A DNA stretch of 64,000 bases, taken from a virus. This document shows positions 36,308 to 58,914 of the stretch, piece after piece (within the stretch, counting starts at the first letter, position 1; every line of letters starts with the position of its first letter). The DNA is taken from positions 39,546 through 103,545 of IMG/VR virus record IMGVR_UViG_3300045988_058019, one strand, 5' to 3'. Both the position numbers and the translations under genes were made by a program. A model generated the notes under the pieces. It was not told the DNA's origin. It saw only the letters and a list, made by a program, of their open reading frames with translations, and ran no database searches.

Positions 36308-38788
36308 TTATTTACTCTTTTTAGCTTCTGCGTTTGTCTTATTCTTAAGTGCTGTCTTAGCTTTTAATCTTTCTCTCTCCATTGCTGCTTTATCTTTAGC
36401 TGCTTGCAACTTCATTTCGTGATCCATTCTTTCTCTTTCAAGCTGATTTTTCTTATCTTCTATCTCTTTCTTCATCTTCTGCTCTCTAATCTTAGCATTG
36501 AATTCAAATTGTTTAGAAGCTTCATCAGATGCTTGCTTACGTTCAGCTAAAGCTTGTTGAGCTATCTCTACTGGATCTGGAATTCCATTACCGTCTTGAT
36601 CCATATTCTCAGCACCTCTATAGGCATTAAGTTGAGCTACAGTAATCTTAGTAGCATTATCTTGATCTATCTTATATTTCTCAAGATCCATTTCTGCTTC
36701 TTTAATCATGAGCTCCTCTTCCTTAATCTCATTTTGCATCTGAATAGCTTGCTGTTCACGTTCTGCTTGAGCTTGTTCCATAGCTTGTTGTTGCTCCATA
36801 CGTTTTTGCTCAATTTCCTCTAATCTAGACTTAATCATACTAATATTATCCATAGTAATGATTTCAGCTATATCAAGTAAGCTAGCTCCGTTCTGCATAG
36901 CAGGTTGCATTAACTGCTTAAGTGTTTCTATATACTGTTGATTCTTAGTAGTATCTTCTATAAAGATATCAAAATCCTCATAAAGCATATCATCTGATAG
37001 CGTTAAGAATGCTCTAGTAGCATCATCTAATATATATTGTAGATGAGTTTTACTACTATCTTTCCAAGCCCATCTAGCAGTATTAAGTAGCATAGTTAAG
37101 CATTCTCTCTTTACCTAATTGTGTGTCCAGAACCAAGGTTCAGTAATATGAGCTGATTGTACTACAGAACGCTCTACATTACCTACTAATTCATTAGATG
37201 AAATAGACCCTTCTCTTTGCTTACTAACTCCAGATATCTCAGATAGCATACTTTCAATCTTATCCATAAGATTAATATACTAATCTATAGTATTAGCCAT
37301 AGTAAGGTCAAGAGCTGTAATCTAGTTAAACTGACTAGGTTTACCTCCTTCTCTACCAGGTATATCCCATCCTTCTTCATACGGATTAATAAAGTTTACA
37401 CCAAGAGCAGATAAATAATGCATCCATTTAGATACATCTATATTCATAGATTTTGGTATCTAAGTAATATCCATATTTACTACTTTACCTTTATCTCTAG
37501 CCATAGCAAGCTCAAGTCTATACCATAGTACAATATACATATACTGTAATGGTTTCATCATGCTTACTAAACTACGTGGTCTACTGTTTGTATTATTATA
37601 TACTACTCCAGTATAAGGCAATCTCTAAGAGTTAGGATTATCAGATGAAGTATATTGATATTCTAATGGTTGTATTCCTATATATAAGTCTTCTCCAGCT
37701 CTATATCCTTCCCATACTTCGGTAATCCATTTCCATTCTACATTAAGTTCCATCCCGGTCTCTTTATAGCTCTCATCTACTTGATATTCTTTAGGCTCAC
37801 CTAATTCAGGATCAATTATAGTAACAAAACCTATTTTCTTAAATGATTTCCAGCAACAGTGCCATACTTTCACACTATTAGTACTATCAAATGGATTACT
37901 ACTGAATCCGTTAATAGTATGTGTTTTAATATGAGTATAGTCTAAAGATGTCTTTCTTACTTCAGGATTTATACCTCCTTTAGAAGCTTGATCCATCATA
38001 TCTAACAACTAATTTAGCTGTTTCTCAGACATCTTATCGTATAATCTATCATATAGTTCAGTTACAGACATATTCATTTCATAACAACACCATTCTGCGT
38101 CATGAATGAATTCCAAGTCGGACGTTTCAGTATCATAATCAAAGTAGATAGGATTAACACGTTCGAGGCACGGTTCTCCATTCAGTATACCTACATAGTA
38201 TATCTCTTCACCACCAACTAAAGCATCTTTCCAACCTTTGAAGAATTCATGAGTAATGTTTAACTTATTTTTTAAGTAATTAAGACTGTGATATGCAGTT
38301 ACTTCTGCTATATCTTTATAGTCTTTACTCATGTATTTTTGTATCTACTAAGGAGTCATTATCTCACCATTCTGTAAAGCTTCCTAGTATCTAGCTTGTT
38401 CTTCAGGACCTAATTTACTCATTATAGTAGCCTGAATGTAATCTATTAAAAGCTATTTAGCTCTATCCTACATTTCACTAGCAGCTATATCACTTGTACG
38501 TACTACTCTGAAGTTGAATGGTCTTTTAGTTTCTTCTCCCAACAGTAAGTCTATTTTGGGCTTAATTATATTATAATCCTAAGCCATTGCAGGAAAGCCA
38601 TCCTGCTATTTAAAAGGATTAGTAACATATTTCAGATCTTTTTCATTGTATATACTATTATAAAGATCATAGTATGTTTGCATCTCCTCTCTGCGAGTTC
38701 TGTTATTACCATTTCTAGAACCTCCTAAACTACGACCTATAACATAGTCTATACAACTTTCTTGCCAGTCTTTTGTCTTCTTAGACAT
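36308..38788 (-). CDS. Portal protein candidate, 826 aa
   Basis: Four ORF-track fragments (38606-38788, 38009-38332, 37625-38008, 36308-37093) share one frame and are joined by TAG. It sits directly downstream of TerL and ends at TAA 36308. Confidence 0.7.
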
Positions 38789-38829
38789 AGGAAGTTTCTA
38801 TATTGGCATTTGATTAATATTATTCATAA

Positions 38830-40911
38830 TTAAAACATATATGCTTCGATATTATCTATAGCTTCGTCGTCACGAAACCATTCCTGAGTAAATATAGGGC
38901 CTTCAAACAGTACCCTATTTCTATTCTCTTTTTTAATCTCTTTTACTTTAACATTATATAGCTATTCTCTATATATCATTACTTGGGTCAACGCCATTAC
39001 ACGGTCTACGTTAACTACATCGTTTGCAGCTATAAGTTCCTCTAATAGCGGTTCCGACATTATATTGTATAAGTTCTTCTTGCCATCTGCATTAATATCG
39101 TTAAGCCAATCCTTTATTAGACCCCATCCCCATTGCTTAATCTATTTATTCATGTGGCAACCTTTCTTTCTATTTACTTTAGAATTACTTACTATATCGT
39201 TAATTATATCTGGTTGATCAGCAAGTAAGTAGTCACAATGCTTATTAGTAAAGTAAACAAATATGCCTTTATTTTGATTCTCATACATTGCTCTAGCATT
39301 ATAGTATATAAGTAATTTACGTACATTTTCATAAAAATCTTCTGCTGACTTAGGTCTGCCTGTGTACTCTGCTACTATTATATCTGAATACTATTCTATA
39401 GACTATACTCTCTTATATATAAAACAAGAACCCAAAGATGTAGTACTTGATTCATCATAGTCGTATGAGTCTATACCTGCAATATACAAACCAGCACTAG
39501 CATCCTTATTAGGATGCTCCCATATTACTATAGAACCAGTAGGATCATCTCCTACTAATGCTCCAGTAACTTCATCCCTTTTAGTTCTTAATGGGTAATG
39601 TGTTATATCTCCTGTCTTCTTAATAACCCATTTAAGACTACCGTCAGGTTGCCATACTAGATCACCTACCTACTTATGATTCTATAATTTTTTATTAGTT
39701 CTGAGTAATGATAACTACTCTTGTAATTCCTTCTTGGGGAATATGTTACCATTAAACTCTAGCATGGCCTCTGCTGGAGTAATAGGTCTCTCTGCAACGT
39801 ATCTGTCAACTGCTGCGTTATTAGTGGCATTAGTTATTACTACTTGCCTTTCTGCTAATATGTGTTCTAAAGACTTCTTACGGTACGTATTACCGTCCTC
39901 GTCCATATATATACGTTTACCATTCTCATCACGTATATCTAAGTTAGTATATTGAGGTACAAAGAAACCACATTTATTAGTAGTAGCAGACTCATCCCAT
40001 ATGTTATCAAACCCTAAACAATTGTATCCATCAGGGTTGTAAAACATATCCTTCATAGTTTCAAATGCAGAACCTTCATCACCACCAGTACCCCATACTA
40101 TCATAGTACCAAAGGCTATACCATCTACCTCTACAGAAGGTCTAGCAATTTGCCATGCTGCTCCTAATTCAGAGAAAGAACCACCTTCCTCAAACATAAT
40201 AAGATTAGCTTTCTTACCACGTACTACATCAGGATTATCTTTCAAAGTAACCCCTATAATCTCTGACTTATAACCTAATTCTATAATATTACCGTAGTCA
40301 TCCTTAGTATAGAATCCTGCACGTCTACGCATCTAAGTGTTAACTGATCTCTTCTTACCCCACGCAGTATTCTTATCTATAAAGTCCATATAATCCCAAG
40401 CTTTAGTAAGAATACCATCATCTGTCAAATACTATTTATTTGATGCATATATGAAGGTTTTAGAGTATGGTATTAGATAGAAATTACGGCATGCCATAGA
40501 ACCACCTTTGTATGAAAAACCTTTACGTCTAGACTTAAGTAAGCATAAATGTTTACCCTACTCTTGGGCTTCCTATACTGCATTAAAATAGTAATAGTCG
40601 TAATCCCAGAAGTCGGGGAAAGTTACCTCATTAACACGTTTTACTTTAGTATTACCTAATTCATCTGTAGTAATATGATTGACTATACGAGATATAGGAC
40701 AATAGTTTAAATAAAAATAGTTATACCCACTAATGAAATCTCCATCATCAGCAGTATAACCATCTACGCATCTTTTACTTTCCTCATCCCAGAACTTAAA
40801 ATATTCTGAAGTACCTTCTGGATATACGCAATAAGAACCAGTAGCTATAAACTATAGTGCTGGTCCTCTAAATTTATTACTATTTACTATCTTCTTATTA
40901 AAGTCTACCAT
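38830..40911 (-). CDS. terL: Terminase large subunit, 693 aa
   Basis: ATG 40911 is in frame with ORF-track 39715-40332. Hand translation shows ATPase and RNaseH-like nuclease regions (..IMFEEGGSF.., ..LYIAGIDSYDYDE.., ..AEYTGRP.., ..YYNARAMYENQ..). There are multiple TAGs and TAA at 38830. Confidence 0.85.
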
Positions 40912-40912
40912 A

Positions 40913-41098
40913 TTATAATTTTATATCCCAAGTATATTCTTCTTCTGTAATATCTGTTTGGTTAGGCGGATATGATAAATAATCGCAAGTGGGACACATG
41001 CTATATAGTTCATCAATCATTTGCAAGAGTTCTGGAACATTTGGGAAATTCCTGTTCTCTTCGTTTCCACCAACATTTAAACTTTTCATATTCTTCAT
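40913..41098 (-). CDS. Small hypothetical protein, 61 aa
   Basis: Intact ORF abutting the TerL start. Confidence 0.4.
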   Translation of the reverse strand: MKNMKSLNVGGNEENRNFPNVPELLQMIDELYSMCPTCDYLSYPPNQTDITEEEYTWDIKL

Positions 41099-41378
41099 AA
41101 TCTAACCAATAAGTATTTCTTCTAACTTTAATCTCCATCATAATATTATTTAAAAGGGGCGCGTTTCACAACGAACCCCTTTCCGAAAATGGGAAAAAAT
41201 TATTTTTTAGAAATAGGGAGATTTCTGTAGCTGCAACCTAGTTTCTTAATCTAGGGATTTATACGCCGTATATTTAGTACTCCCCACCTGGGCTAACATT
41301 ACCCCAGACTACCTGTTCACGATAACTACCTATCCAACAAGTTTCCTTCTGCTATTATAGTTTCAAAGGACTAGTATT

Positions 41379-42359
41379 TTAAGCAGTCTGCTTGCAGTCA
41401 GACTGCATTAATTCTTTCTTCCAGATATAACCTTTACACGTCTTAGCTCTACCATTGCAAGCTCTCTGTATAGATTTATAGTCAGTGTTTACTGCCTTAG
41501 CCGCATTGTGCATTCCCATATAAGTAGCTACTAATATATCATCTAAAGTATACTGGTAAACTAAATACTTAGTAGATGCCACTCTTAGTTTTTCTTTTTG
41601 CTCTTCAGACATCTTTTTACCTTTATTCAATCCAACCATACCTTTAACCCAGTTAGAATTGCCAAAATATACTTTATTACGTTTATATCTCTTAACCAAG
41701 GTAGATTTATTCTTTTCATACTCTTCTAACCATAATGGAATGTTAGACTTTTTATCTTCTAATTCTTCTTTAGTATATGCTGCAATAAAATTATTACAAA
41801 ACGGGTGGATGTAATTATTGTTGCATAGTCTACCTATATTAGAGCGACTCAGGCCTGTAATAGTTGCTGCATCCTTGATAGTCCAAGCATATATATAATA
41901 TCTATCAATAAAATTATATAAATGTACACGCTTACCGAATGTACCGTTTGCTACTAATTTTTTAGTATTTTCAGATACTTTCTTCTTTTGCTCTTCTGTC
42001 ATCTTGAGTCCAAGAACTCCAAAATCACCACCTTTAGTACAATTGTATCCCTCTGTATAAGCGTTGTATTTTTCAATATACTCTATTTCTAATTTGTCTA
42101 ATGTTTGAATTAGTTCTAAATTAGAAATATTTGGATCTGGAATAAATGATTCCAGTATATCTACAGTAAAGTTATGAAAACCGTACTTATTTATTGCTCT
42201 ATAAATTGGTAAATCTAATTTTCCATTCTTAGCATTTCGCATATGGTCTTTTAGTCTTGATCTTAGTTTAACACTTTGACCAATATAACATTTACCATTC
42301 ACATTATTTTTGATTATATATATACCAGCTAACTTTGGATCTATATCTCTGTATGTCAT
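41379..42359 (-). CDS. GIY-YIG homing endonuclease (no TAG)
   Basis: GIYIIKNNVNGKCYIGQS..LRSRLKDH, YNCTKGGD and a C-terminal CKGYIWKK. Confidence 0.8.
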   Translation of the reverse strand: MTYRDIDPKLAGIYIIKNNVNGKCYIGQSVKLRSRLKDHMRNAKNGKLDLPIYRAINKYGFHNFTVDILESFIPDPNISNLELIQTLDKLEIEYIEKYNAYTEGYNCTKGGDFGVLGLKMTEEQKKKVSENTKKLVANGTFGKRVHLYNFIDRYYIYAWTIKDAATITGLSRSNIGRLCNNNYIHPFCNNFIAAYTKEELEDKKSNIPLWLEEYEKNKSTLVKRYKRNKVYFGNSNWVKGMVGLNKGKKMSEEQKEKLRVASTKYLVYQYTLDDILVATYMGMHNAAKAVNTDYKSIQRACNGRAKTCKGYIWKKELMQSDCKQTA

Positions 42360-42382
42360 ATCTGCAAGTTTTATATGAATAT

Positions 42383-42460
42383 TGGTTGGGGCGGCAGGGC
42401 TCGAACCCGCACATCACAGAGGTTTAGAATCTCCGGTACTACCAATTATACCACGCCCCA
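42383..42460 (-). tRNA. Suppressor tRNA, anticodon CUA (reads UAG), probable Gln identity
   Basis: The reverse complement folds as TGGGGCG-TG-GTAT/AATTGGTA/GTAC-C-GGAGA/TTCTAAA/CCTCT-...-GCGGG/TTCGAGC/CCTGC-CGCCCCA-A-CCA. It has a perfect 7-bp acceptor stem, U33-CUA-A37 (anticodon at 42425-42427), a canonical T-loop and an encoded CCA. U1-A72 resembles bacterial tRNA-Gln. The variable region looks slightly long (about 7 nt). Confidence 0.85.
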
Positions 42461-42505
42461 ATATCACGTGGATATTCTTACCCTCCACGTAAGGGTTCTG
42501 ATGGT

Positions 42506-42643
42506 TTAGAACCAAGATTTAATTCTTTGCCATAATGACTTCTTTACAGGTTTGTTCAAATATTCAGAAGCTTCTTCAATCTGTCTAAATACTTCGTCTG
42601 TATCCTTAGTCAAGTCTATAGTAATCGTAAATTTCTTATTCAT
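42506..42643 (-). CDS. Small hypothetical protein, 45 aa
   Basis: ATG..TAA ORF MNKKFTITIDLTKDTDEVFRQIEEASEYLNKPVKKSLWQRIKSWF. Confidence 0.3.
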   Translation of the reverse strand: MNKKFTITIDLTKDTDEVFRQIEEASEYLNKPVKKSLWQRIKSWF

Positions 42644-42700
42644 AATATTTTCATTTATACACTATAACGTGTTGTTAGTATTTGGTTATATTTTAATGTA

Positions 42701-43231
42701 TTATCTTGCCAACTCGTATGGATTTACTTTAGCGTCACCTTTAACTTTGCCTATAGCTACTTCTTCCGCTTTAACCATAGTCTCTAGTGAATCTATACTT
42801 TTGAGTACTCCACCTACAGAAGTCATACCGGCTAATAAATCCTTAATCTTCTTTTCGTCTAAAGTATCGTCTAATGATTCTTTATAGTATTTACTCACAC
42901 TATCTAGTTTTAGACGCATATTATTTAGCATTTGTAGAGCTCTAGTGTTAAGTAGGTTCTTATATTCCTCTTCACAAATTAGTTCTTCAGAAGTTAATTT
43001 ATAATTTTCATCATTAAATATTTCCTTCTTTAATTTAAGCTCTCTACTATCTTCATCCATACTTTGTACATAAGGACTATCCCATTTATTCATAAGTACA
43101 ATGTAACTTATTACTTTAGAAGAATGCTCCTTATCTGGCTTATCAGTATCCCACACCTTTTTAAAGCATGGGATACCTATAGCATCAGGATGTATTACTA
43201 CCTTACCACCAACAATATCAAATAATTTCAT
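42701..43231 (-). CDS. Hypothetical protein, 176 aa
   Basis: Intact ORF-track ORF ending in TAA. Confidence 0.55.
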   Translation of the reverse strand: MKLFDIVGGKVVIHPDAIGIPCFKKVWDTDKPDKEHSSKVISYIVLMNKWDSPYVQSMDEDSRELKLKKEIFNDENYKLTSEELICEEEYKNLLNTRALQMLNNMRLKLDSVSKYYKESLDDTLDEKKIKDLLAGMTSVGGVLKSIDSLETMVKAEEVAIGKVKGDAKVNPYELAR

Positions 43232-43532
43232 TTGTAAGAACTTGTTTATTATCTTCTTTATTCCATCTTATAAGATCGTCTTTAGCAAAAGCGTCAGAAC
43301 AGACTATTGGTTTTAATGTCCACTTACTACTTATAGTATCATATTTACTTAATATGAGTACAATATCTCCTAGTTTATAGTCTATTACTTCCTCTTCTGT
43401 TATTATTTGACCATCCTACTATGCTATATATATAGTTCTACATTCAAAGTTGTCAGATATATTTTTAATGCTATTAGTATCTACTTTATATAAAATAGCA
43501 TTACCGTATTGATCTATCAATAATTTATCCAT
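43218..43532 (-). CDS. Hypothetical protein, 104 aa (TAG-TAG doublet in frame)
   Basis: Hand translation gives MDKLLIDQYGNAILYK...IYIAQQDGQII...NEII then TGA. Length is a multiple of 3. Confidence 0.45.
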
Positions 43533-43533
43533 A

Positions 43534-43908
43534 TTAGCAATCACACTGTACAGGTTCACAAGCACAATCACATTCAATATCACAAGAAGTAGATTTCTTT
43601 TTTTCTTCTTGTCCCTTTTCTAGCAATCTGTTATAGTGATTCTTTACTTCATCATTTTCAATAAAGATGTACTCTGCATCACTTTCTTTATCTATAGGAT
43701 ACAATTTTATTACCATAGTGCCTTTAGTAACACTCCTTCTCTCTTTAGAACCATCTTTCTTTGTATAGATCCACTCTCCATCTTCAGGAATATACCACGT
43801 ATAGTCTACATAAAAATGATCTAGTAAGCTAACATTTTCTACTTCTTTATCGTAACTAATAACGGTACCTCTATCTACTGAACAAATATACTTAATCATA
43901 ATAATCAA
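43534..43908 (-). CDS. Hypothetical protein with Cys-rich C-terminus
   Basis: Intact ORF ending ..CDIECDCACEPVQCDC. Confidence 0.5.
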   Translation of the reverse strand: MIIMIKYICSVDRGTVISYDKEVENVSLLDHFYVDYTWYIPEDGEWIYTKKDGSKERRSVTKGTMVIKLYPIDKESDAEYIFIENDEVKNHYNRLLEKGQEEKKKSTSCDIECDCACEPVQCDC

Positions 43909-43959
43909 TCAATTAAATAACCTAAATAATATTCTTTCTATAATCTCGCTATAATTTCC

Positions 43960-44340
43960 TTAGCACGCCCCATCGGTACATTCGGATTCACATAATCTGA
44001 TTTTATTTGATAATTCTGTATTATCTGCTAAAACTTCTCTATCTCCTCCTGTATGCTCTACTTTTTTATATTCTTCATACTTCTTAAATAGCATGTCACA
44101 CATTGCATTTACCTGATCGGCTCTACTAGGTTCTGCATTACTCTTCCCATTATCTACTATAGTAGTAGTAATACTGTCAATTACATCATTTGTGAAATCT
44201 TCATAAGTAATTACGCCTTCATTAATTAATTCATCTACTTTGTTATATAGGCGCTTCATTTCCTTACTAAATGAACCATAGAGTGGTTTATTGTTTTCCA
44301 CTTCTAATTTCCACATCATTTTACTTTCTTCAATTGTCAT
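43960..44340 (-). CDS. Hypothetical protein, 126 aa
   Basis: Intact ORF-track ORF. Confidence 0.5.
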   Translation of the reverse strand: MTIEESKMMWKLEVENNKPLYGSFSKEMKRLYNKVDELINEGVITYEDFTNDVIDSITTTIVDNGKSNAEPSRADQVNAMCDMLFKKYEEYKKVEHTGGDREVLADNTELSNKIRLCESECTDGAC

Positions 44341-47420: not shown

Positions 47421-48140
47421 TTATTTAACGCTATTAAGTTCATTATTTTTAATATTCATTAACGATTTTAACTTATCCGCTAACTTTCTAGCATCTGGAT
47501 GAGCTGTACCACTACCTCCATCATTTAATTTCCATTCCCATATAAACCCTTTATCTGTTTTTCTGTATCCATTGCAACATTCGCTTATATGCCGTGCCCC
47601 AGTTATACGCTGAGCTTCATTTAGACCGAAATATTCAGATATAAAATTACCATGTTTATCAAACTATAACACAGGTTTACTTCGCTTCATCTTAGAAGAT
47701 TTTGTTCTATGTTTCCCTTTATTTTTGCTAACGCGCTTTTCTATTGTTTCTTTTGTTTGTTTTAAACCCACGTGTGATAATTTCATACGTTCAATTTGTT
47801 CAGGCGTAAAATTAATGCCAGAAACCCCCTCACCACCATCAGTGATGTTGTATGATTTGTGTTCCTTTTTGTATAGTTTTATATATAGTTTTTCATATTC
47901 ACAAGCCTATTTTTTAGTCAATCCTGCATGTAATATTTCATGTATTATATTATTCCACCCGTATTTTAGTATCGCTGGGGCAAACGCGGGATGTTTCCAA
48001 TTACCATTTTTCAATTTTATAACATAATTGCATCCATCCTAACCCCAGCGTTTAATCGGATTCTATCTAGTTATACCTATATAACATTTTCCACTCGGAG
48101 ACGTATGTTTATACACGCAATACTAATTATTTTTCGTCAT
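47421..48140 (-). CDS. GIY-YIG homing endonuclease (5 in-frame TAG), start overlaps thyX 3' end
   Basis: Hand translation gives MTKNNQYCVYKHTSPSGKCYIGITRQ..YNITDGGEG..FDKHGNFISEY..GFIWEWK.. then TAA at 47421. Length is a multiple of 3. It is absent from the ORF track because it is fragmented by TAG. Confidence 0.7.
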
Positions 48141-48927
48141 ATAATAACTCTTTTAGTTTTAACGATAACCGTTGAGCGTCTGGATGCGCGTTTTTGCTTG
48201 TCCGTAATGACAAGAAATGTTCCCAATCGCTCTTAAATCCTGTCATTACTAATGGTGAACATACAGCAAACGGAAGTACTTGTCTAGCTTGTTGTGGTTT
48301 CCAACCTTGTTCTATAAACTCTAAATATTGTTCTTCACAATTTTCTAAAAATATCTCAAAATCTTGTTTATGTGTTGTTCCAAGTTCATCCCACCAAGAC
48401 GGTTTAATGAAGGTAATTTCATTATTAAATTTATCTTTACTATAGTTGCAGTAACGGGTACTCTCTCTAGCGAAACTAAATACACGATGTCTTAGAAAGC
48501 TTTCTCCAGTTACTCTATCTAATGTCCATTTAACAGTAATACGTTTCTCGTGGGAAGGTGTAGGATCACATTGATATTTTAAATCATCAAGCCATTTATT
48601 TTCTACTAGTACTCGATAATTTGTAGTTATATAAGCCCTACCGTTAATACCATCTACACTTATCTTTTTTACTCTAGAATAAGGATTTATTTCGTATTTT
48701 CTTACTTCTGGAGAAGTGGCTGTTATAGTTAAATATACAGTGCCGTGCTCTAACATAGCCCCATGACCAAGCTTAATCATACGATCTACAAACTCTTTAG
48801 CGCTATTCTCTGTTATCTTATCAAGACTTTTATAACAATGGCGTCCAGCCCATTCTATTTGTTTATATACACCGTCTATTCCGGATTCTTGTTCTTTAAC
48901 TATTACACTTGAATTAATTAATTTCAT
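48127..48927 (-). CDS. thyX: Flavin-dependent thymidylate synthase ThyX
   Basis: The ThyX signature RHRxxSxxxxSxRY is present as LRHRVFSFARESTRYC. Confidence 0.85.
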   Translation of the reverse strand: MKLINSSVIVKEQESGIDGVYKQIEWAGRHCYKSLDKITENSAKEFVDRMIKLGHGAMLEHGTVYLTITATSPEVRKYEINPYSRVKKISVDGINGRAYITTNYRVLVENKWLDDLKYQCDPTPSHEKRITVKWTLDRVTGESFLRHRVFSFARESTRYCNYSKDKFNNEITFIKPSWWDELGTTHKQDFEIFLENCEEQYLEFIEQGWKPQQARQVLPFAVCSPLVMTGFKSDWEHFLSLRTSKNAHPDAQRLSLKLKELLYDEK

Positions 48928-52390: not shown

Positions 52391-52475
52391 GCCCGAATGG
52401 TGAAATAGGTATACACGAAAGACTTAAAATCTTTTGACCATTATGGTCGTGCGAGTTCAAGTCTCGCTTCGGGTA
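52391..52475 (+). tRNA. tRNA-Leu (anticodon UAA), type II
   Basis: GCCCGAA acceptor, anticodon arm AAAGA/CTTAAAA/TCTTT, long variable arm GACCA-tta-TGGTC, T arm GCGAG/TTCAAGT/CTCGC, 3' strand TTCGGGT (G1.U72). Confidence 0.85.
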
Positions 52476-52850
52476 CAAAAGGATAGCTATCGTTTACTTC
52501 TCACAGACAGTTCTCAATAAAAAACTCAATAACTTCGGAGTAGCGTAAGCTACGGAGTTGTGTAACAATCCCAAGACATTGAGGGCACCAGTTTCTTATA
52601 ATAGTATAGTTGGCAGACGTAAGGGCGTACTCAGCTGCCAGATGAAGCAGTGAATTCTGTGGACTGATAGAGAACGTGTGATATTCAGGCTATGCGTTGC
52701 GCAGTTATAAGTTTTAGGTGTAAAATGCAATTTAATCATTAACTAAATAATCATATGGATAGAGACACAGAATTAGGTATGTTATCAGTAATAATCACAA
52801 TGATAGTATTATATCTATCTATATGGTTATTTAACTAAAAATGAACAGAA

Positions 52851-53075
52851 ATGAATACTCTAATTAGTAAATTATTAGGAACTGCAGTAGGAGTAAAAAT
52901 AGGGAATAATACTATTATAGGCTTATTAGTAGGTGTAGCATGGGATGAAAATTTACAAATATCAGAGTTATCATTATCTCCTTCAGAGAATAATGTAAAT
53001 ACTTATCTCATTGACACATATATTATGCCTTATTTTGACGAACACCTAAATATAGTAGTATATACCGCATTATAA
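52851..53075 (+). CDS. Hypothetical protein, 74 aa
   Basis: Intact ORF-track ORF. Confidence 0.45.
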   Translation: MNTLISKLLGTAVGVKIGNNTIIGLLVGVAWDENLQISELSLSPSENNVNTYLIDTYIMPYFDEHLNIVVYTAL

Positions 53076-53727
53076 TATTAATACAGATTTATTTCGCAAA
53101 GTAATTATTCTATGAAATGCAAATTATCCTCATATGTTGTGAAACATAATTTAACCACGTTAAAGTATAATAATATAAGTTAGGTATGTCCTTATAAAGA
53201 CTTAGGTAGCGCTAAGGACTATATTATTATACTTCTCTTCTTAAACCACCGATGATACGTGACAAGTCGTATATGGAATGAGTGTGAGTCAAGAAGTAAA
53301 CTATTCCGCCTTTATATGCACATTAAAGGTTAAAGATTGAATAGTAATCCACGTGGTAGATGCAGTTGTAGGTTCCAACTGGTGCACATCTTTTAGAGAC
53401 AGCAACCAAGCTCGAAGTAAGCAGAGCGAAGATTAGCTATACCTCGATAGGCTTAATGAGGTGCTTAACAGTCTGACACTAACTGAACAATAAGTGTCTT
53501 TTAAGTTCACCCTCAAGAAGGGAAAATGTTGAACTCTACAGATATGTAGACAGCTCCATTAACTCTAGCTGTAATAAAGAGTTATTAATAGAGTAAGAGA
53601 ATAGAAACGTGTATATCTACGTAGTTCTTAGCATAGCTTATAGTCGCACATCGTAACTGATGACTATATTAATGCGCTTACTCTATTATTTTTATTGCAT
53701 TAACTAACAAATAAATAATATCAAATT

Positions 53728-54174
53728 ATGGAGAAAATAACTTGTATTCAGCAGTATGTAATAGATAATCTTATTGAAGATGAGATATTATCTACAAACA
53801 GTCTATTAGATGCAGTTTCTGAAGTATGTTCAGAAGAACAATTTAATAACATACTATCTATTCTTATTGAAACACCTATTCCTTGTACAGACATACCTAA
53901 ATTGGAGCATAAAGAAGACTCAGGAAATAAAACAAACTTAGTAAGAATGAGTATGTTTATACCTGAAGAAACTAACACTTTAGCTAAACTAGGCATAATA
54001 AAAATACTAAAAAAACAATTCAACTTTAGTCTTAACCAAACTAAAGAATATGTAGATAGTTGCATAGGAAAGTATAGTATACTACCCAATGCTATTCTAC
54101 AAACAGAAGTAGATGAAGTTACTAAAAAATTAGAACCTTACAATGTAATTGTATCTACAGCAGTGTTTTATTAA
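53728..54174 (+). CDS. Hypothetical protein, 148 aa
   Basis: Intact ORF-track ORF. Confidence 0.5.
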   Translation: MEKITCIQQYVIDNLIEDEILSTNSLLDAVSEVCSEEQFNNILSILIETPIPCTDIPKLEHKEDSGNKTNLVRMSMFIPEETNTLAKLGIIKILKKQFNFSLNQTKEYVDSCIGKYSILPNAILQTEVDEVTKKLEPYNVIVSTAVFY

Positions 54175-54206
54175 TAAGTTAATGCAGTAAATATTACTGC
54201 ATCTAT

Positions 54207-54321
54207 ACTGTGAGAATCAGTGTCAACTTTGTGGGGCTTATATTCAGTTATTCTTTATGTAAAATAGGAGTCATGACCTAATAATATCATAATATAAACT
54301 GATATTAGTGCAGAGAAATCA
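54207..54321 (+). ncRNA. Structured RNA module, copy 1 (UGAGAAU hairpin ... UGUGGGGCUUAUAU - variable hairpin - UAUUAGUGCAGAG)
   Basis: ACTG-TGAGAAT-CAGT hairpin, conserved TGTGGGGCTTATAT, variable stem TCAGTT/AACTGA, conserved TATTAGTGCAGAGAAATCA. Confidence 0.5.
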
Positions 54322-54469
54322 AAGACAATATACATTTTAGTGCGATTGATGTATACGAGTAAAGGTCATGACAAGGTTCATGATTTAAGGGTGTCTTAAA
54401 CGACAGGTTGAGAGCAACAACGTAAAAGCACAATTGCTAAGTCAGAGGAACCCATCTCTGGCGCTCTTT

Positions 54470-54557
54470 AAGGTGAGAATCCTTAACAATCCTGTGGGGC
54501 TTATATCTCGTGTTTATAGTAGTGGTGTCACGAGTATTAGTGCAGACGTTAAAATCA
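54470..54557 (+). ncRNA. Structured RNA module, copy 2
   Basis: AAGG-TGAGAAT-CCTT (a compensatory stem relative to copies 1 and 3), TGTGGGGCTTATAT, stem CTCGTG/CACGAG, TATTAGTGCAGACGTTAAAATCA. Confidence 0.5.
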
Positions 54558-54891
54558 GGAACAACTATATTAGACGGCAATATTACCTTCTTCCGGTCGC
54601 AAATGTCATATAGTTTAATATAGCCAAGTTTGTTTCGTCCTTAGATTTACAGTATTTGCCATTTGTTTATTTAATCATTGTTCGTTCTTAATTATACAGA
54701 TTGATTAATTAAGCATAACAGTAAGCGTACTGTTGTCAGTATATTTATATGTGAATATAGATATACTGATTGCACTCAAAAGCTGGCCTTCACGTGGCGA
54801 GTGTGTTAAGTAATAGGTCTAAAAAATCTTCCAGTTTTACCTATGAAAACTAACAGCTACCTTTTTATTAACTTTAATAACTATCAAAAAT

Positions 54892-55077
54892 ATGTATAAA
54901 AAACTATCAAATTTAAATGTTGGAGATATATTCCAATATGGAGACACTATATATGAAATAGTAGAAAAAGGAGTATGGCATGCAAAATGCAAGTATATTA
55001 ATGAAACTCCTAAATCGGAATATTCACCTAAATATTTATTTATAAATTTTAGTCTTTATACTCGAGTTAAAGTTTAA
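54892..55077 (+). CDS. Small hypothetical protein, 61 aa
   Basis: Intact ORF-track ORF. Confidence 0.45.
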   Translation: MYKKLSNLNVGDIFQYGDTIYEIVEKGVWHAKCKYINETPKSEYSPKYLFINFSLYTRVKV

Positions 55078-55088
55078 TAATTTTAAAT

Positions 55089-55171
55089 GCCCAGATGGCG
55101 AAATAGGTAGACGCTAAGGTCTTAAACACCTTTGACCATTGGTCGTGCGGGTTCGACTCCCGCTCTGGGTA
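55089..55171 (+). tRNA. tRNA-Leu (anticodon UAA), second diverged copy
   Basis: GCCCAGA acceptor, anticodon arm AAGGT/CTTAAAC/ACCTT, variable arm GACCA-t-TGGTC, T arm GCGGG/TTCGACT/CCCGC, 3' strand TCTGGGT (G1.U72). Confidence 0.85.
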
Positions 55172-55200
55172 CAATTAGTAATTAACATTAAAATCTATTT

Positions 55201-55506
55201 ATGATAAAAGTAATTAAATATTATGAACTAAATCGAATTAGTAGAATATTAGTAATAGCAATAATAACATATATTATTGGCATTCTAATTAAAAGAGAAT
55301 ATGAAGAGTCCAAAACTGTATATAATTTTGTAGATTTACAAATGAAGTACAAGAATTATATATTAGTTAATAAAGAGAGAAGTATTACTAATGATGAAGA
55401 ATATAAGTTCACATTACGTAATCCTATTACAAATCAAAATAGTACTGTATACGTAAAATACTATCTATATCATCATGTATATTTCGTTGGAGATACTATA
55501 AAATAA
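55201..55506 (+). CDS. Hypothetical membrane-anchored protein
   Basis: Intact ORF with an N-terminal hydrophobic segment. Confidence 0.5.
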   Translation: MIKVIKYYELNRISRILVIAIITYIIGILIKREYEESKTVYNFVDLQMKYKNYILVNKERSITNDEEYKFTLRNPITNQNSTVYVKYYLYHHVYFVGDTIK

Positions 55507-55525
55507 CATTTTAATCAATAAAAGT

Positions 55526-55894
55526 ATGAAAAGAGAAGAAATTAAATCTTACAAAGATGCTTGCAAAGTAATAGGTAGGAAACCTAGAACTTATAAAGAT
55601 AAGCATTTGAATCTGTATGAACAGCTTAGTACAATTATAGCTGCTCTAAATTTCATTAGTAATGGTAATAAACCTTGGACACCTAAGTTCGATTATTATT
55701 ACATCTATTCTTGGTTGTATAGAGAAGATGAATATAATAAAACTGCGGGTTTGTTCCATTTGAATTCTTACCGTGGGTTGGGCTCTTCCTCTGCTGGTGT
55801 CGGGGCTTCTCTGAAGATAAAAGAAAGAGAAGATGGAAATTACATAATGGAAAACTTTGAAGAACTACTCCAAGATTGGTTTTGGGGAGATTAA
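55526..55894 (+). CDS. Hypothetical protein, 122 aa
   Basis: Intact ORF-track ORF. Confidence 0.5.
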   Translation: MKREEIKSYKDACKVIGRKPRTYKDKHLNLYEQLSTIIAALNFISNGNKPWTPKFDYYYIYSWLYREDEYNKTAGLFHLNSYRGLGSSSAGVGASLKIKEREDGNYIMENFEELLQDWFWGD

Positions 55895-55919
55895 TTACTA
55901 ATTTTAAAACATTATCAAA

Positions 55920-56384
55920 ATGGAAAATGATTTAATGGCGAGACCTGAACCGCCAAGAAGAACTGTTTGGGTAGTAGTAGCAATCCTTGCCTTAATAGGC
56001 ATGATTGGAGCAATATTTTACGCAGAGCGTAAAAACATTGCTAATTTCTTAAATGGTGTAAACCAAGAAGAAGTACAAGAAGATGCGCATATTACTATTG
56101 AAGAGCCTGTAGCAACAATACAGGATATTCTCGATATGCGTGAGCAAATGAGAGAAGATAGAAGGATTGATAGTGTATTTTTAGCTATGCCAAAGGTAGT
56201 ATTAATTGATATTTTGATGCAGCATGGTACATCATTGTCTATAAAAGACATGATTTACATATATGAATCAAACACATCAACGTATAACACAGTACTATCT
56301 GGAGCAAGAGCTCAAAAATATCTTGATGACTCTATACAAACTCATGTTATATCAACGGTTGTAAATGACTCTATTCAAAATTAA
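55920..56384 (+). CDS. Hypothetical membrane-anchored protein
   Basis: Intact ORF with TM segment VWVVVAILALIGMIGAIFY. Confidence 0.5.
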   Translation: MENDLMARPEPPRRTVWVVVAILALIGMIGAIFYAERKNIANFLNGVNQEEVQEDAHITIEEPVATIQDILDMREQMREDRRIDSVFLAMPKVVLIDILMQHGTSLSIKDMIYIYESNTSTYNTVLSGARAQKYLDDSIQTHVISTVVNDSIQN

Positions 56385-56474
56385 AACCAAACCTCCTGTT
56401 TTAAATGAATATTAGAGTCTAGTATACTCAGTCTGTGAAGATAGAGTATACTTTCATTAAAAAAACTAAATAAT

Positions 56475-56918
56475 ATGAGAAAGTACACAAACACATATAT
56501 AATAAAAGATAACAATGGAGTATTAGTTATTAAAGGAAACAATAAATACATTGAAGTATTAATTGATGTTGAAGATATTGATAAATTAAAGCCTTATTCT
56601 TGGAGAATAAACGATAAAGGGTATATAATATCTGATTATAAAAGAAATAAAGTAAGATTACACAATATAATATTAGATAGAGACACATCTAATACAAAAA
56701 TCGTGTGTGACCATATTAATCGAAATAAGTTAGATAATAGAAAAGCAAATCTAAGAATAATAAGTCAAAGAGAAAACAACTTAAATAGAGAGAATATAAT
56801 CAACGCTAAATATTATACTTATAGAAAAGACAGAAATAAGTATTATGTATATGGAGTTGGTTATTTTAATACTGAAGAAGAAGCAATAAAAGCTCGTAAT
56901 AACTGTGAGAATCAGTAA
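56475..56918 (+). CDS. HNH homing endonuclease
   Basis: VCDHINRNKLDNRKANLRIISQRENN is the HNH motif. The 3' end overlaps RNA module copy 3. Confidence 0.8.
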   Translation: MRKYTNTYIIKDNNGVLVIKGNNKYIEVLIDVEDIDKLKPYSWRINDKGYIISDYKRNKVRLHNIILDRDTSNTKIVCDHINRNKLDNRKANLRIISQRENNLNRENIINAKYYTYRKDRNKYYVYGVGYFNTEEEAIKARNNCENQ

Positions 56919-56994
56919 CAAACATGTGGGGCTCATATCTTATCAAAAGAATGCTAGCGCTTTTAGATAGGTATTAGTGCAGACGTTAAAATCA
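56902..56994 (+). ncRNA. Structured RNA module, copy 3
   Basis: ACTG-TGAGAAT-CAGT, TGTGGGGCTCATAT, variable hairpin CTTATC../..GATAGG, TATTAGTGCAGACGTTAAAATCA. Confidence 0.5.
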
Positions 56995-57678: not shown

Positions 57679-57695
57679 CTTATCAAAAGTAAAGT

Positions 57696-58163: not shown

Positions 58164-58164
58164 T

Positions 58165-58870: not shown

Positions 58871-58914
58871 TGTTAAATAAATTTTATTGTTAAATCAATT
58901 AAACTGTATTCAAA

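What the first reader, a model, noticed from the sequence alone, without database searches (positions are those of the whole stretch)
42383..42460. Phage-encoded tRNA with anticodon CUA placed at the head of the packaging/late operon
- **Fold.** A clean cloverleaf on the minus strand has U33-CUA-A37 in a 7-nt loop, a perfect 7-bp acceptor stem, a canonical TTCGAGC T-loop and an encoded CCA.
- **Identity.** The U1-A72 first pair is a hallmark of bacterial tRNA-Gln, which agrees with the motif evidence that TAG = Gln.
- **Position.** It lies between the mostly TAG-free genes upstream and the TerL-portal-capsid block. A GIY-YIG homing endonuclease gene and a hairpin-rich spacer (41100-41378) lie immediately downstream, so it may travel as a mobile cassette.
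- **Irregularities.** There is an A31.C39 mismatch, and the variable region looks about 7 nt long.
Basis: partly seen in the sequence, partly recalled or inferred. Interest (0 to 1): 0.7.

Follow-up and report, generated by a model that had tools for sequence, protein, structure and literature searches.

The report
Amber-suppressor tRNA-Gln in a crAss-like phage
This is a real phage tRNA that reads the stop codon TAG as glutamine so the phage's late genes can be translated; that is a known feature of crAss-like gut phages, and the one less familiar point is that this version of the tRNA always travels with a homing-endonuclease gene.

Summary
The window is a Suoliviridae crAss-like phage, 94% identical to cr53_1.

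- **Recoding.** In-frame TAG is nearly absent upstream of the tRNA (0.9 per 1000 codons). It is common from TerL onward (11.9 per 1000, in 29 of 33 genes).
- **TAG means Gln.** In non-recoded relatives the TAG columns of TerL and portal align mainly with Gln (31 of 51).
- **tRNA body.** It scores as Gln-type rather than Trp-type.
- **Prior knowledge.** The identical 78-nt gene is annotated tRNA-Gln in RefSeq cr114_1. Suppressor tRNAs and late-gene TAG recoding in these phages are published (Yutin 2021, Borges 2021, Peters 2022). The core finding is therefore already known.

One detail I did not find in the literature I searched. The locus holds two tRNA(CUA) families. Family A (75 nt) never has the adjacent GIY-YIG gene (0 of 55 loci). 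Family B (the window's) always has it 17-27 nt downstream (28 of 28, and 33 of 33 in the reverse test). Both states occur on the same backbone in at least four lineages. The tRNA plus endonuclease therefore behaves as one mobile unit, like T4 SegB. The spacer is backbone, not cassette.

The parts
42383..42460 (-). tRNA(CUA), family B1, 78 nt with encoded CCA. It is an amber suppressor with a Gln-type body; the anticodon C34 U35 A36 lies at 42427-42425.
   Evidence: ARAGORN; Rfam RF00005, 45.5 bits; covariation on 15 relatives; 78/78 identical to KNV55_gt002, annotated 'tRNA-Gln', in RefSeq NC_055897.1; Gln-versus-Trp score +25.9 bits.
42466..42490 (-). Leader hairpin ACGTGG-N13-CCACGT, ending 5 nt before the tRNA 5' end. 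It is part of the backbone, not of the cassette.
   Evidence: Read from the sequence. A 6-7 bp hairpin sits at the same place with a different sequence in other backbones, and is identical in family-A and family-B loci of one backbone. Its function is unknown.
41379..42359 (-). Free-standing GIY-YIG homing-endonuclease gene (326 aa, no in-frame TAG). Its ATG is 24 nt after the tRNA 3' end.
   Evidence: Pfam PF01541 E = 2e-9, plus weak NUMOD1 and HTH hits; PHROG homing endonuclease E = 8e-30. Present in 28/28 family-B loci and 0/55 family-A loci. All 33 homologues of at least 54% identity follow a family-B tRNA.
41379..42460 (-). The swapped unit: tRNA-B, a 23-nt linker and the endonuclease gene. 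HE-less relatives carry only a 75-nt family-A tRNA(CUA) here.
   Evidence: The alignment to cr53_1 breaks inside the tRNA and resumes just after the endonuclease stop codon. The junctions are seen in several backbones. Identity is mosaic: tRNA and HE are 100% and 99.9-100% identical to L017/L051/L070, whereas TerL and portal are 97-99% identical to the family-A loci L023/L030.
41274..41378 (-). Conserved element of about 105 nt immediately after the cassette. It is backbone sequence of unknown function.
   Evidence: 96-100% identical in all close relatives, while neighbouring coding DNA is 89-99% identical. No Rfam match. The fold of the whole spacer is not better than shuffles, z = -0.96.
41152..41179 (-). 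Terminator-like hairpin GGGGTTCGTTGTGAAACGCGCCCC followed by TTTT, lying between the cassette and TerL.
   Evidence: Read from the sequence. Found in 51 of 72 related loci, usually ending 15-18 nt before the TerL ATG. Only a weak Rfam resemblance to the terminator of a Bacteroides sRNA, E = 0.069 and far below gathering. Not called by the simple terminator scan.
40913..41098 (-). Small ORF (61 aa, no TAG) just upstream of TerL. It has no family match.
   Evidence: the ORF listing; no Pfam or PHROG hit. It is absent from cr53_1 at this place.
38830..40911 (-). TerL (693 aa with 12 in-frame TAG, no intein): the first TAG-recoded gene downstream of the tRNA.
   Evidence: 91-98% identical homologues; annotated terminase large subunit in relatives.
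36308..38827 (-). Portal protein (839 aa with 14 in-frame TAG).
   Evidence: used with TerL to infer TAG = Gln.

Best explanation
**What it is.** The feature is a functional, phage-encoded amber-suppressor tRNA with a tRNA-Gln-type body and anticodon CUA. The phage is a TAG-recoded (genetic code 15) crAss-like phage of the family Suoliviridae.

**How it most likely works.**
1. The gene lies downstream of, and in the same orientation as, a run of small TAG-free genes (shown). It is probably transcribed with them, or from its own promoter, and then processed from its leader; CCA is encoded (inferred).
2. The host glutaminyl-tRNA synthetase charges it with Gln (inferred, not tested). The grounds are U35, U1-A72, G2-C71, G3-C70 and G10.
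3. It then decodes UAG as Gln in the TerL, portal, capsid, tail and lysis genes that follow, about 12 TAG per 1000 codons (shown that TAG stands where relatives have Gln).
4. Those late proteins can therefore only be completed once the tRNA has accumulated. This is the published model of recoding as a late-gene gate (inferred).

**The added layer.** This allele (family B) is physically and evolutionarily coupled to a free-standing GIY-YIG homing endonuclease 24 nt downstream. The pair replaces a different tRNA(CUA) allele (family A) found in otherwise near-identical phages. The simplest reading is intronless homing:
- The endonuclease cuts HE-less genomes in or next to the family-A tRNA gene.
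- Repair from an HE-bearing co-infecting genome copies the endonuclease gene together with its diverged, presumably cut-resistant but functionally equivalent, tRNA.

The linkage and the mosaicism are shown. Cleavage and its site are inferred.
For: **A real tRNA.**

**Recoding boundary.** Upstream minus-strand genes carry 2 TAG in 2260 codons, which is 4% of Gln-type codons. Downstream genes carry 145 in 12178 codons, which is 30%, in 29 of 33 genes. Off-frame TAG density is the same on both sides, 36.5 and 36.9 per 1000. No ORF counted ends in TAG. That scan delimited ORFs by TAA/TGA only, so the test is real only for the TAG-free upstream genes.

**TAG = Gln.** Non-recoded relatives have Q at 31 of 51 TAG cells. 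That fraction (0.61) matches the fraction at the window's own CAA/CAG columns (0.55). Log-likelihood favours Q over E by 46 nats. Metaproteomics has shown TAG to Gln in two crAss-like phages (PMC9523058).

**Gln-type body.**

**Only suppressor.** The complete genome of cr114_1, which carries the identical tRNA and is TAG-recoded, has no other CUA tRNA.

**Synteny.** A tRNA(CUA) sits between the 176-aa protein gene (with a small ORF after it) and TerL in 84 related loci.

**Cassette.**
- Adjacent endonuclease in 28/28 family-B loci and 0/55 family-A loci.
- Reverse test: all 33 homologues of at least 54% identity follow a family-B tRNA by 17-27 nt, and those of 45% or less do not.
- Identical 70-nt leaders carry A or B+HE in four backbones.
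- The window's TerL and portal are 97-99% identical to family-A loci. Its tRNA and HE are 100% and 99.9-100% identical to loci whose TerL is 76-93% identical.

**Precedent.** T4 SegB is a GIY-YIG endonuclease in a tRNA cluster. It recognises a T-arm motif and drives inheritance of the neighbouring tRNA genes (PMC2330249).
Against: - No expression, processing or aminoacylation data exist for this tRNA, and the phage is uncultured.
- A73 (not G73), A38 (not U38), the A31.C39 mismatch and a 7-nt variable region all depart from ordinary tRNA-Gln. Its Gln-versus-Trp score is at the low end of the Gln range, and only those two isotypes were compared.
- Only 64 kb of a roughly 100-kb genome was seen, so a second suppressor elsewhere in this genome is not excluded. 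cr114_1 argues against it.
- One upstream ORF (43218-43532) has two tandem in-frame TAG, and a second GIY-YIG ORF at 47421-48140 has five. The TAG-free block is therefore not absolute.
- No promoter could be located. The terminator-like hairpin leaves only 15-18 nt before TerL in many relatives. The transcription-unit assignment, and hence the timing model, remains inference.
- Endonuclease cleavage, its target and the resistance of family B are untested. The strict linkage could arise simply because A and B are too diverged for a crossover between the tRNA and the endonuclease gene.
Confidence: 0.85

Rival explanations
1. The tRNA does read UAG but is charged with another amino acid. Trp is the obvious candidate, because its acceptor stem, D loop and A37 A38 resemble tRNA-Trp. 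A mixture of amino acids is also possible.
For: Twenty-one of the 98 cellular tRNAs sharing the acceptor and D-arm signature are tRNA-Trp. The D arm of a Bacteroidales tRNA-Trp (GUAU..GUAC) equals that of B1. The 3' half of family B3 is close to tRNA-Trp of Bacilli. A73 is not the usual Gln discriminator.
Against: W appears at 0 of 51 TAG cells in non-recoded relatives, against Q at 31. The Gln-versus-Trp score is positive for every family-B variant, +18.8 to +40 bits, whereas Trp tRNAs score at most -3.4. U1 is found in 74 of 74 matching Gln tRNAs and in none of the Trp tRNAs. Families A and B replace each other on the same backbone, so they must insert compatible residues, and family A is plainly a Bacteroidota-type tRNA-Gln. 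From textbook knowledge, not tested here: E. coli tRNA-Trp with anticodon CUA (Su7) is itself charged largely with Gln.
Confidence: 0.05
2. The tRNA-like gene is only a passenger or target-site relic of the homing endonuclease and does no decoding. Suppression would come from the host or from another element.
For: It is never found without the endonuclease. It carries an A31.C39 mismatch and a long variable region.
Against: Compensatory changes maintain all the stems among the family-B variants. The 78 nt are identical between subfamilies whose flanks are 72-74% and whose endonuclease gene is 77% identical, which implies strong purifying selection. It is the only CUA tRNA in the complete recoded genome of cr114_1. 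In family-B phages it replaces the family-A suppressor, so without it 29 of 33 late genes would terminate early.
Confidence: 0.03
3. The tRNA is a working Gln suppressor, but recoding is not a timing switch. TAG may simply have become free after being lost as a stop codon in an AT-rich genome (codon capture). Or the main benefit may be read-through of host TAG stops, which would damage host and defence proteins.
For: No ORF in the window was found to end in TAG, though the ORF scan delimited ORFs by TAA/TGA. G+C content is 33%. Yutin et al. propose host sabotage, and Borges et al. propose a low-GC route to recoding. No promoter or timing evidence was obtained here.
Against: The boundary is sharp and falls exactly at the tRNA/TerL junction: 0.9 against 11.9 TAG per 1000 codons, with equal off-frame TAG density. 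Neutral capture alone does not predict that. The tRNA and the endonuclease gene are themselves TAG-free. These readings are not exclusive of the main one.
Confidence: 0.25
4. It is a pyrrolysine tRNA, as the ARAGORN label says.
For: Only the label 'tRNA-Pyl' given to any CUA anticodon.
Against: It has ordinary elbow elements (G18 G19, T54 T55 C56), an 8-nt D loop, a 5-bp anticodon stem and a 7-nt variable region. From textbook knowledge, tRNA-Pyl has a shortened D loop, a 3-nt variable loop and a 6-bp anticodon stem. The TAG columns align with Gln.
Confidence: 0.01

Closest known systems
Suppressor tRNA(CUA) of TAG-recoded (code 15) crAss-like phages: Yutin et al. 2021 (PMC7886860), Borges et al. 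2021 (bioRxiv 10.1101/2021.08.26.457843), Peters et al. 2022 (PMC9523058). Specifically KNV55_gt002, 'tRNA-Gln', of RefSeq NC_055897.1 (cr114_1).
   Same: The 78-nt sequence is identical. The synteny is the same: small ORFs, tRNA, homing endonuclease, TerL, portal. The late genes are TAG-recoded in the same way, and the phage family is the same, Suoliviridae or 'delta' group.
   Different: Nothing about the tRNA itself. The papers read here describe suppressor tRNAs and late-gene recoding in general. In the passages I read they do not mention two allelic tRNA families at this locus, or their coupling to an endonuclease.
Phage T4 SegB, a GIY-YIG homing endonuclease in the tRNA gene cluster (Brok-Volchanskaya et al. 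2008, PMC2330249).
   Same: Both are free-standing GIY-YIG genes embedded next to phage tRNA genes. In both, related phages lack the gene at the homologous locus and the neighbouring tRNA markers are inherited with it (compare).
   Different: - SegB's cleavage and its T-arm recognition site are shown experimentally; here nothing is tested.
- Here the cargo is a single suppressor tRNA that the phage should need for its late genes, and it is swapped for a diverged functional allele rather than added.
- The two proteins were not compared directly.
E. coli amber suppressors supE (tRNA-Gln2 with CUA) and Su7 (tRNA-Trp with CUA, charged with Gln). Textbook knowledge, not checked with the tools.
   Same: A CUA anticodon on a body with U1-A72, G2-C71, G3-C70 and G10, and Gln inserted at UAG. 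The resemblance of family B to both Gln and Trp bodies mirrors the known overlap of the two identities.
   Different: This tRNA is phage-encoded. It has A73 and A38, an A31.C39 mismatch and a 7-nt variable region. The host is presumably a Bacteroidales species whose GlnRS identity rules were not examined.
[quoted passage not shown]
   Same: Standard-code machinery is placed directly upstream of the recoded late genes.
   Different: No synthetase or release factor lies next to the tRNA here; its neighbour is a homing endonuclease. The reassignment is TAG to Gln rather than TGA to Trp.

Membership tests
tRNA (Rfam RF00005) | Cloverleaf that scores above the curated threshold, with conserved U8, A14, G18 G19, U33 and the T54-Psi55-C56 positions. 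| tested here: met
   45.5 bits against a gathering score of 29; ARAGORN call; 94% of cells paired and 14 of 21 pairs compensatory across 15 relatives.
Amber suppressor tRNA of a code-15 phage | Anticodon CUA. | tested here: met
   C34 U35 A36 at 42427-42425.
Amber suppressor tRNA of a code-15 phage | The genome has in-frame TAG in conserved genes, and does not use TAG as a stop. | tested here: met
   145 in-frame TAG in 33 late ORFs, including 12 in TerL and 14 in portal. None of the TAG-free upstream ORFs ends in TAG; the scan delimited ORFs by TAA/TGA, so TAG stops in the late genes were not tested.
Amber suppressor tRNA of a code-15 phage | TAG positions correspond to glutamine. | tested here: met
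   Q at 31 of 51 cells in two non-recoded relatives; Q favoured over E by 46 nats.
Amber suppressor tRNA of a code-15 phage | The tRNA is expressed, charged with Gln and used at UAG. | not testable with these tools
   Only indirect support: metaproteomics of other crAss-like phages (PMC9523058).
Bacterial tRNA-Gln (identity set of E. coli GlnRS, from textbook knowledge) | Weak first pair U1-A72. | tested here: met
   U1-A72 in the window's tRNA. 88 of 92 cellular tRNA-Gln have it, but tRNA-Asn also starts with U.
Bacterial tRNA-Gln (identity set of E. coli GlnRS, from textbook knowledge) | G2-C71, G3-C70 and G10. | tested here: met
   Read from the sequence.
Bacterial tRNA-Gln (identity set of E. 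coli GlnRS, from textbook knowledge) | Discriminator G73. | tested here: not met
   A73 here, and in family A too. G73 occurs in 89 of 92 sampled cellular tRNA-Gln.
Bacterial tRNA-Gln (identity set of E. coli GlnRS, from textbook knowledge) | Anticodon loop U35, G36, A37, U38. | tested here: inconclusive
   U35 and A37 are present. Position 36 is A, as any amber suppressor requires. Position 38 is A, not U.
Bacterial tRNA-Gln (identity set of E. coli GlnRS, from textbook knowledge) | The overall body is closer to Gln than to the most similar other isotype. | tested here: met
   Gln-versus-Trp score of +25.9 bits with the anticodon excluded. Left-out Gln tRNAs score at least +19.2 and Trp tRNAs at most -3.4. 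The training set was small and chosen by pattern, and tRNAscan-SE isotype models were not available.
tRNA-Pyl | Compact D loop, 3-nt variable loop, 6-bp anticodon stem, and no G18 G19 or T-Psi-C elbow motifs (textbook knowledge). | tested here: not met
   8-nt D loop with GG, 7-nt variable region, 5-bp anticodon stem and a TTCGAGC T loop.
Free-standing GIY-YIG homing endonuclease with intronless homing (Seg-like) | GIY-YIG catalytic domain plus a DNA-binding module. | tested here: met
   PF01541 E = 2e-9. The NUMOD1, I-HmuI NUMOD-like and HTH hits are below their curated cut-offs. PHROG homing endonuclease E = 8e-30.
Free-standing GIY-YIG homing endonuclease with intronless homing (Seg-like) | Presence or absence at one locus among close relatives, out of step with the backbone phylogeny. 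| tested here: met
   Both states occur on four backbones with the same leader. Identity is mosaic. The endonuclease gene is 99.9-100% identical among backbones that are about 90% identical.
Free-standing GIY-YIG homing endonuclease with intronless homing (Seg-like) | Flanking markers are carried along with the endonuclease gene. | tested here: met
   The family-B tRNA always accompanies the gene: 28/28, 0/55 and 33/33.
Free-standing GIY-YIG homing endonuclease with intronless homing (Seg-like) | Site-specific cleavage of the HE-less allele, and resistance of the HE-bearing allele. | not testable with these tools
   Inference only. The family-A tRNA gene is the only sequence shared by the four invaded backbones, whose leaders and trailers differ.

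The most novel reading that the evidence does not exclude
In Suoliviridae crAss-like phages the code-switch gene itself is the homing site of a selfish element. A GIY-YIG endonuclease targets the family-A suppressor tRNA gene, which the phage should need for its late genes. It spreads by replacing that gene with a diverged, cut-resistant but functionally equivalent family-B suppressor carried beside it. Two non-recombining suppressor alleles would then be maintained across several genera. The strict two-way linkage and the mosaicism are shown here. The cleavage target and the resistance of family B are not. I found no description of this in the open-access papers searched, but the library is incomplete.
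Probability: 0.45. Interest if true: 0.5.

Novelty: already known. Interest (0 to 1): 0.3.

Why it matters
**The tRNA itself.** It matters mainly for annotation. Without code 15 and this suppressor, the TerL, portal, tail and lysis genes of this phage break into fragments. It adds one more clean example of the sharp standard-code to recoded boundary that underlies the model of recoding as a late-gene gate.

**The extra result has some wider use.**
- Two suppressor alleles are exchanged on the same backbone, and one is welded to a homing endonuclease.
- This is a natural experiment. The two tRNA bodies should be interchangeable for Gln insertion at UAG in the same host.
- Comparing them could show which features the host GlnRS and ribosome really require. 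They share A73 and the G27.U43 and U13.G22 pairs. They differ in acceptor stem, position 31-39 and variable loop.
- It also gives a concrete, testable case of a selfish endonuclease using translation machinery the phage needs as its landing site.
- It warns that suppressor-tRNA phylogenies in these phages will not follow genome phylogenies.

Tried and rejected
1. **Large protein search with TerL.** The 120 hits listed were all at least 90% identical and had already been translated with TAG read through, so they could not test what TAG encodes. I used tblastn against non-recoded phage genomes instead.
2. **BLAST of the family-B and family-A tRNAs against E. coli genomes.** No match, so uninformative.
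3. **Ranking cellular tRNAs by global identity.** This did not separate isotypes (0.72-0.76 for Gln, Leu, Trp and Tyr), and long tRNAs were favoured by free end gaps. I replaced it with a column-wise Gln-versus-Trp score.
4. **Promoter and terminator scans.** The sigma-70 and terminator scan of 40500-44000 found 19 promoter-like sites against 19.5 expected and missed the conserved hairpin. A Bacteroides-type promoter pattern (TTTG-N17-23-TAnnTTTG) gave 3 matches against 2.4 expected, none on the tRNA strand nearby. The transcription units therefore remain unassigned.
5. **Folding energies.** Both the tRNA and the spacer give z = -0.96. This is no support for a structured spacer RNA as a whole.
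6. **Rfam at a permissive threshold on 40800-42700.** It found only the tRNA and a sub-threshold resemblance to the terminator of a Bacteroides sRNA.
7. **Rejected readings.** tRNA-Pyl, on structure. A tRNA used as an integration site, because I saw no integrase annotated in the related records examined and this is a virulent-type crAss-like genome. The spacer as part of the mobile cassette, because it is present in HE-less relatives.
Full report
**1. The observation**

ARAGORN reports three tRNAs in the window. One lies at 42383-42460 on the minus strand with anticodon cta at position 34. Its label 'tRNA-Pyl' is only the program's name for that anticodon. Rfam's tRNA model matches 42386-42460 (-) at 45.5 bits against a gathering score of 29.

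Read directly, the RNA is UGGGGCG UG GUAU AAUUGGUA GUAC C GGAGA UUCUAAA CCUCU GUGAUGU GCGGG UUCGAGC CCUGC CGCCCCA A CCA. Its features are:
- a perfect 7-bp acceptor stem with U1-A72;
- a 7-nt anticodon loop with U33, CUA and A37;
- an A31.C39 mismatch, flagged as non-canonical in the Rfam alignment;
- a 7-nt variable region;
- a canonical T loop, discriminator A73 and an encoded CCA.

The minimum free energy is not unusual (z = -0.96), which is normal for tRNAs. The real support is comparative and is given in section 4.

**2. What genome this is**

The 20 kb around the tRNA is 94% identical to crAss-like phage cr53_1 (NC_055889.1; Crassvirales, Suoliviridae, Blohavirus). It is 76-82% identical to a dozen other Suoliviridae. 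In cr53_1 a tRNA annotated tRNA-Gln sits at the syntenic place, directly upstream of the terminase large subunit. The window's 78-nt sequence is 100% identical to KNV55_gt002, 'tRNA-Gln', of cr114_1 (NC_055897.1). There it is followed by an annotated homing endonuclease, a tRNA-Met, TerL and portal. It is 80% identical to the tRNA-Gln of cr4_1, which has the same neighbours. The object is therefore already in RefSeq.

**3. Recoding and the meaning of TAG**

With TAA and TGA as the only stops, the minus strand from 40911 down to 3020 resolves into 33 long ORFs. These include TerL, portal, major head protein and tail proteins.
- They carry 145 in-frame TAG, or 11.9 per 1000 codons. That is 30% of all TAG+CAA+CAG codons, and 29 of the 33 ORFs have at least one.
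- The 16 minus-strand ORFs counted between 49549 and 40913, including the endonuclease gene, carry 2 TAG in 2260 codons. Both are a tandem pair in one small ORF.
- Off-frame TAG density is the same in both blocks, 36.5 and 36.9 per 1000, so the contrast is not compositional.
- None of the TAG-free upstream ORFs ends in TAG. The scan delimited ORFs by TAA/TGA only, so it could not detect a TAG stop in the late genes.

To learn what TAG encodes, I aligned the window's TerL and portal (26 TAG positions) by tblastn to relatives fetched from GenBank.
- In cr10_1 (64% identity, no in-frame stops) the TAG columns hold Q 18, E 4, S 2, N 1, G 1.
- In cr118_1 they hold Q at 13 of 25.
- The fraction of Q at TAG columns (0.61) matches that at the window's own CAA/CAG columns (0.55).
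- A likelihood comparison over all 20 residues puts Gln 46 nats ahead of Glu.

TAG = Gln is therefore shown for this phage by comparison. It has been shown by metaproteomics for two other crAss-like phages (PMC9523058).

**4. Is it a tRNA-Gln, and is it under selection?**

A scan of IMG/VR for the anticodon arm gave 119 loci. ARAGORN on them shows two tRNA(CUA) families at the same Suoliviridae locus.
- *Family A* is 75 nt: UGCCCUAUGGUGUAAUGGYUAGCAC.., with arm GGAGGCUCUAACCCUCU and usually U1.U72.
- *Family B* is 76-78 nt: UGGGG.., with arm GGAGAUUCUAAACCUCU and the A31.C39 mismatch. The window carries variant B1.

On 15 distinct sequences the cloverleaf is 94% paired and 14 of 21 pairs show double changes. 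No shuffle reaches this, and slid controls give 47-56%. The anticodon stem is invariant only because it was the search pattern.

For isotype I scanned one genome per species for the acceptor and D-arm signature of family B, leaving base 1 free.
- Of 98 matching tRNAs, 76 are Gln (74 of them with U1), 21 are Trp (20 with A1, one with G1) and 1 is Pro.
- A column-wise log-odds score of Gln against Trp, anticodon excluded, gives B1 +25.9, B2 +29.3, B3 +18.8, B4 +40, A1 +19.1 and A2 +25.0 bits.
- Left-out Gln tRNAs score at least +19.2, and left-out Trp tRNAs at most -3.4.
- Family A is close in D arm, variable loop and T arm to a Bacteroidota tRNA-Gln(CUG).

Both phage families have A73, whereas 89 of 92 sampled cellular tRNA-Gln have G73. 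U1 is typical of Gln (93 of 97) but also occurs in Asn. The complete, recoded genome of cr114_1 has no other CUA tRNA.

Conclusion: this is a selected, functional tRNA with a Gln-type body. Some features are unusual (A73, A38, A31.C39, long variable loop). Charging by the host GlnRS is inferred, not shown.

**5. The endonuclease link**

The ORF 41379-42359 (-) is a GIY-YIG endonuclease, and it has no TAG. The alignment to cr53_1 breaks inside the tRNA and resumes exactly after the endonuclease stop codon. The evidence for a coupled unit is as follows.
- *Linkage.* Among loci with the Suoliviridae context, 28 of 28 family-B loci have this gene starting 17-26 nt after the tRNA. None of 55 family-A loci has it.
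- *Reverse test.* All 33 IMG/VR homologues of the endonuclease with at least 54% identity are preceded by a family-B tRNA(CUA) 17-27 nt upstream. None of the homologues at 45% or less is.
- *Same backbone, both states.* The 70-nt leader is backbone-specific, and four different leaders occur with either allele. The pairs are window/L051 against cr53_1/L039, L016/L043 against L034, cr4_1 against L026, and L025 against L067.
- *Mosaic identity.* The window's TerL and portal are 97-99% identical to family-A loci (L023, L030). Its tRNA and endonuclease gene are 100% and 99.9-100% identical to L017, L051 and L070, whose TerL is only 76-93% identical.

So the unit 42460..41379 (tRNA-B, a 23-nt linker and the endonuclease gene) moves by recombination, independently of the backbone.

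The spacer after it is backbone. It is present in HE-less relatives, and its first 105 nt are 96-100% conserved.

The published analogue is T4 SegB. That is a GIY-YIG enzyme inside the tRNA cluster which recognises a T-arm motif and drives inheritance of the surrounding tRNA genes (PMC2330249).

The endonuclease's target here is not tested. The family-A tRNA gene is the only sequence shared by the four invaded backbones, which makes it the obvious candidate. The strict linkage could also follow simply from A and B being too different to recombine within.

**6. Position relative to the late genes**

The hairpin GGGGTTCGTTGTGAAACGCGCCCC followed by TTTT (41179..41152) lies between the cassette and TerL. 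It is kept in 51 of 72 related loci, usually ending 15-18 nt before the TerL ATG.
- If it terminates transcription, the tRNA and endonuclease gene close the TAG-free unit rather than open the late one. Late transcription would then have to read through it.
- No promoter could be assigned.
- In a few relatives TerL starts only 19 nt after the tRNA, so the arrangement varies.

The timing model is the published one: the suppressor is made from standard-code DNA, and late proteins can be completed only afterwards. It fits the sharp boundary seen here but remains inference.

**7. Comparison with what is known, and verdict**

The suppressor tRNAs of crAss-like phages, TAG to Gln recoding of their late genes, and inteins and introns in the delta group are all published. 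This very tRNA and its neighbouring endonuclease gene are annotated in RefSeq. The finding is therefore correct but already known.

What I did not find described, in a limited open-access library, is the two-allele structure of the suppressor locus and the obligate coupling of one allele to a homing endonuclease. That is a new example of a known kind of element (Seg-like intronless homing) with an unusual cargo.

Overall interest is 0.3. Confidence that this is a functional Gln-inserting amber suppressor is about 0.85. Confidence that the tRNA-endonuclease pair is a mobile unit is about 0.9. Confidence that the endonuclease targets the family-A tRNA gene itself is about 0.45.

Noticed in passing
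window 52391-59992 (+): A dense cluster of curated ncRNAs on the plus strand. It holds RAGATH-6 (53087-53237), RAGATH-7 (53300-53499), RAGATH-9 (58427-58588) and three Hatchet ribozymes (54201-54324, 54464-54560, 56896-56997). It also holds two tRNA-Leu(UAA) (52391-52476, 55089-55172) and a permuted tmRNA (59811-59992). All are above Rfam gathering scores. cr114_1 also carries an annotated tmRNA. A phage tmRNA beside an amber suppressor might deal with ribosomes that read through host TAG stops, but that is speculation.
   Followed up: no
window 47421-48140 (-): A second GIY-YIG-like ORF (about 239 codons, motif ..YCVYKHTSPSGKCYIGIT..) with five in-frame TAG. It abuts the thymidylate synthase (ThyX-like) ORF 48127-48927, inside the otherwise TAG-free block. 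It may be an intron or free-standing endonuclease whose own translation needs the suppressor. Borges et al. propose that for a recoded intron endonuclease in Agate phages.
   Followed up: partly
window 41274-41378 (-): An element of about 105 nt immediately after the endonuclease stop codon. It is 96-100% identical in all close relatives, more conserved than the flanking coding DNA (89-99%). It has no Rfam match and too little variation for a covariation test. It could be an RNA leader or a DNA site for late transcription or packaging.
   Followed up: partly
window 41152-41179 (-): The terminator-like hairpin plus T run is kept in 51 of 72 related loci and usually ends 15-18 nt before the TerL ATG. 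That leaves no room for a promoter. It suggests read-through or antitermination control, or a 5' structure of the TerL mRNA.
   Followed up: partly
window 42466-42490 (-), and the leaders of related loci: A 6-7 bp hairpin ends 4-5 nt before the tRNA 5' end. It is kept in different backbones with different stem sequences: ACGTGG/CCACGT, ACGTAGA/TCTACGT, ACGTGGG/CCCACGT, TGAGGAT/ATCCTCA and GCTTGA/TCAAGC. It is possibly a processing or termination signal.
   Followed up: no
L001 (cr53_1) 10666-13845, and proteins P0011-P0120: TerL of cr53_1 and of many relatives is 1039-1064 aa, with intein and LAGLIDADG domains (PF14528, PF14890). The window's TerL is 693 aa, without an intein, and the alignment to cr53_1 skips about 1.1 kb. 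This is another presence/absence mobile element in the same operon, already noted by Yutin et al..
   Followed up: no
L023 and L099 (about 335 nt after the tRNA), L022, L112: Some family-A loci carry other endonuclease genes in the tRNA-TerL spacer. L023 and L099 have a 216-aa ORF with an HNH-like motif (..DFHH..CSNCHRKLH). L112 has a distant GIY-YIG relative at 37% identity. The intergenic region therefore seems to be a general landing pad for homing endonucleases.
   Followed up: no
L002 (cr114_1) 7180-7250, and L016, L256, L257: In some family-B loci a tRNA with anticodon CAU, annotated tRNA-Met, lies between the endonuclease gene and TerL. The window has the conserved 105-nt element there instead.
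   Followed up: no
L021/L038, L050/L088/L095; L018/L049/L116/L042/L120: The identical 17-nt anticodon arm GGAGATTCTAAACCTCT, with the A31.C39 mismatch, occurs on unrelated tRNA bodies in other viral contigs. Some contigs carry a tandem pair of CUA tRNAs, one of 73 nt and one of 89-91 nt with a long extra arm. This may reflect selection on the anticodon arm for suppression efficiency. These loci were retrieved by that very pattern, so the sample is biased.
   Followed up: no
window 43218-43532 (-): A small ORF, homologous in position to cr53_1 gp13, contains two adjacent in-frame TAG codons (..TIYIA**DGQ..). It lies upstream of the tRNA in the otherwise TAG-free block. It is unclear whether this is one read-through protein or a short ORF that ends at a double TAG.
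   Followed up: no
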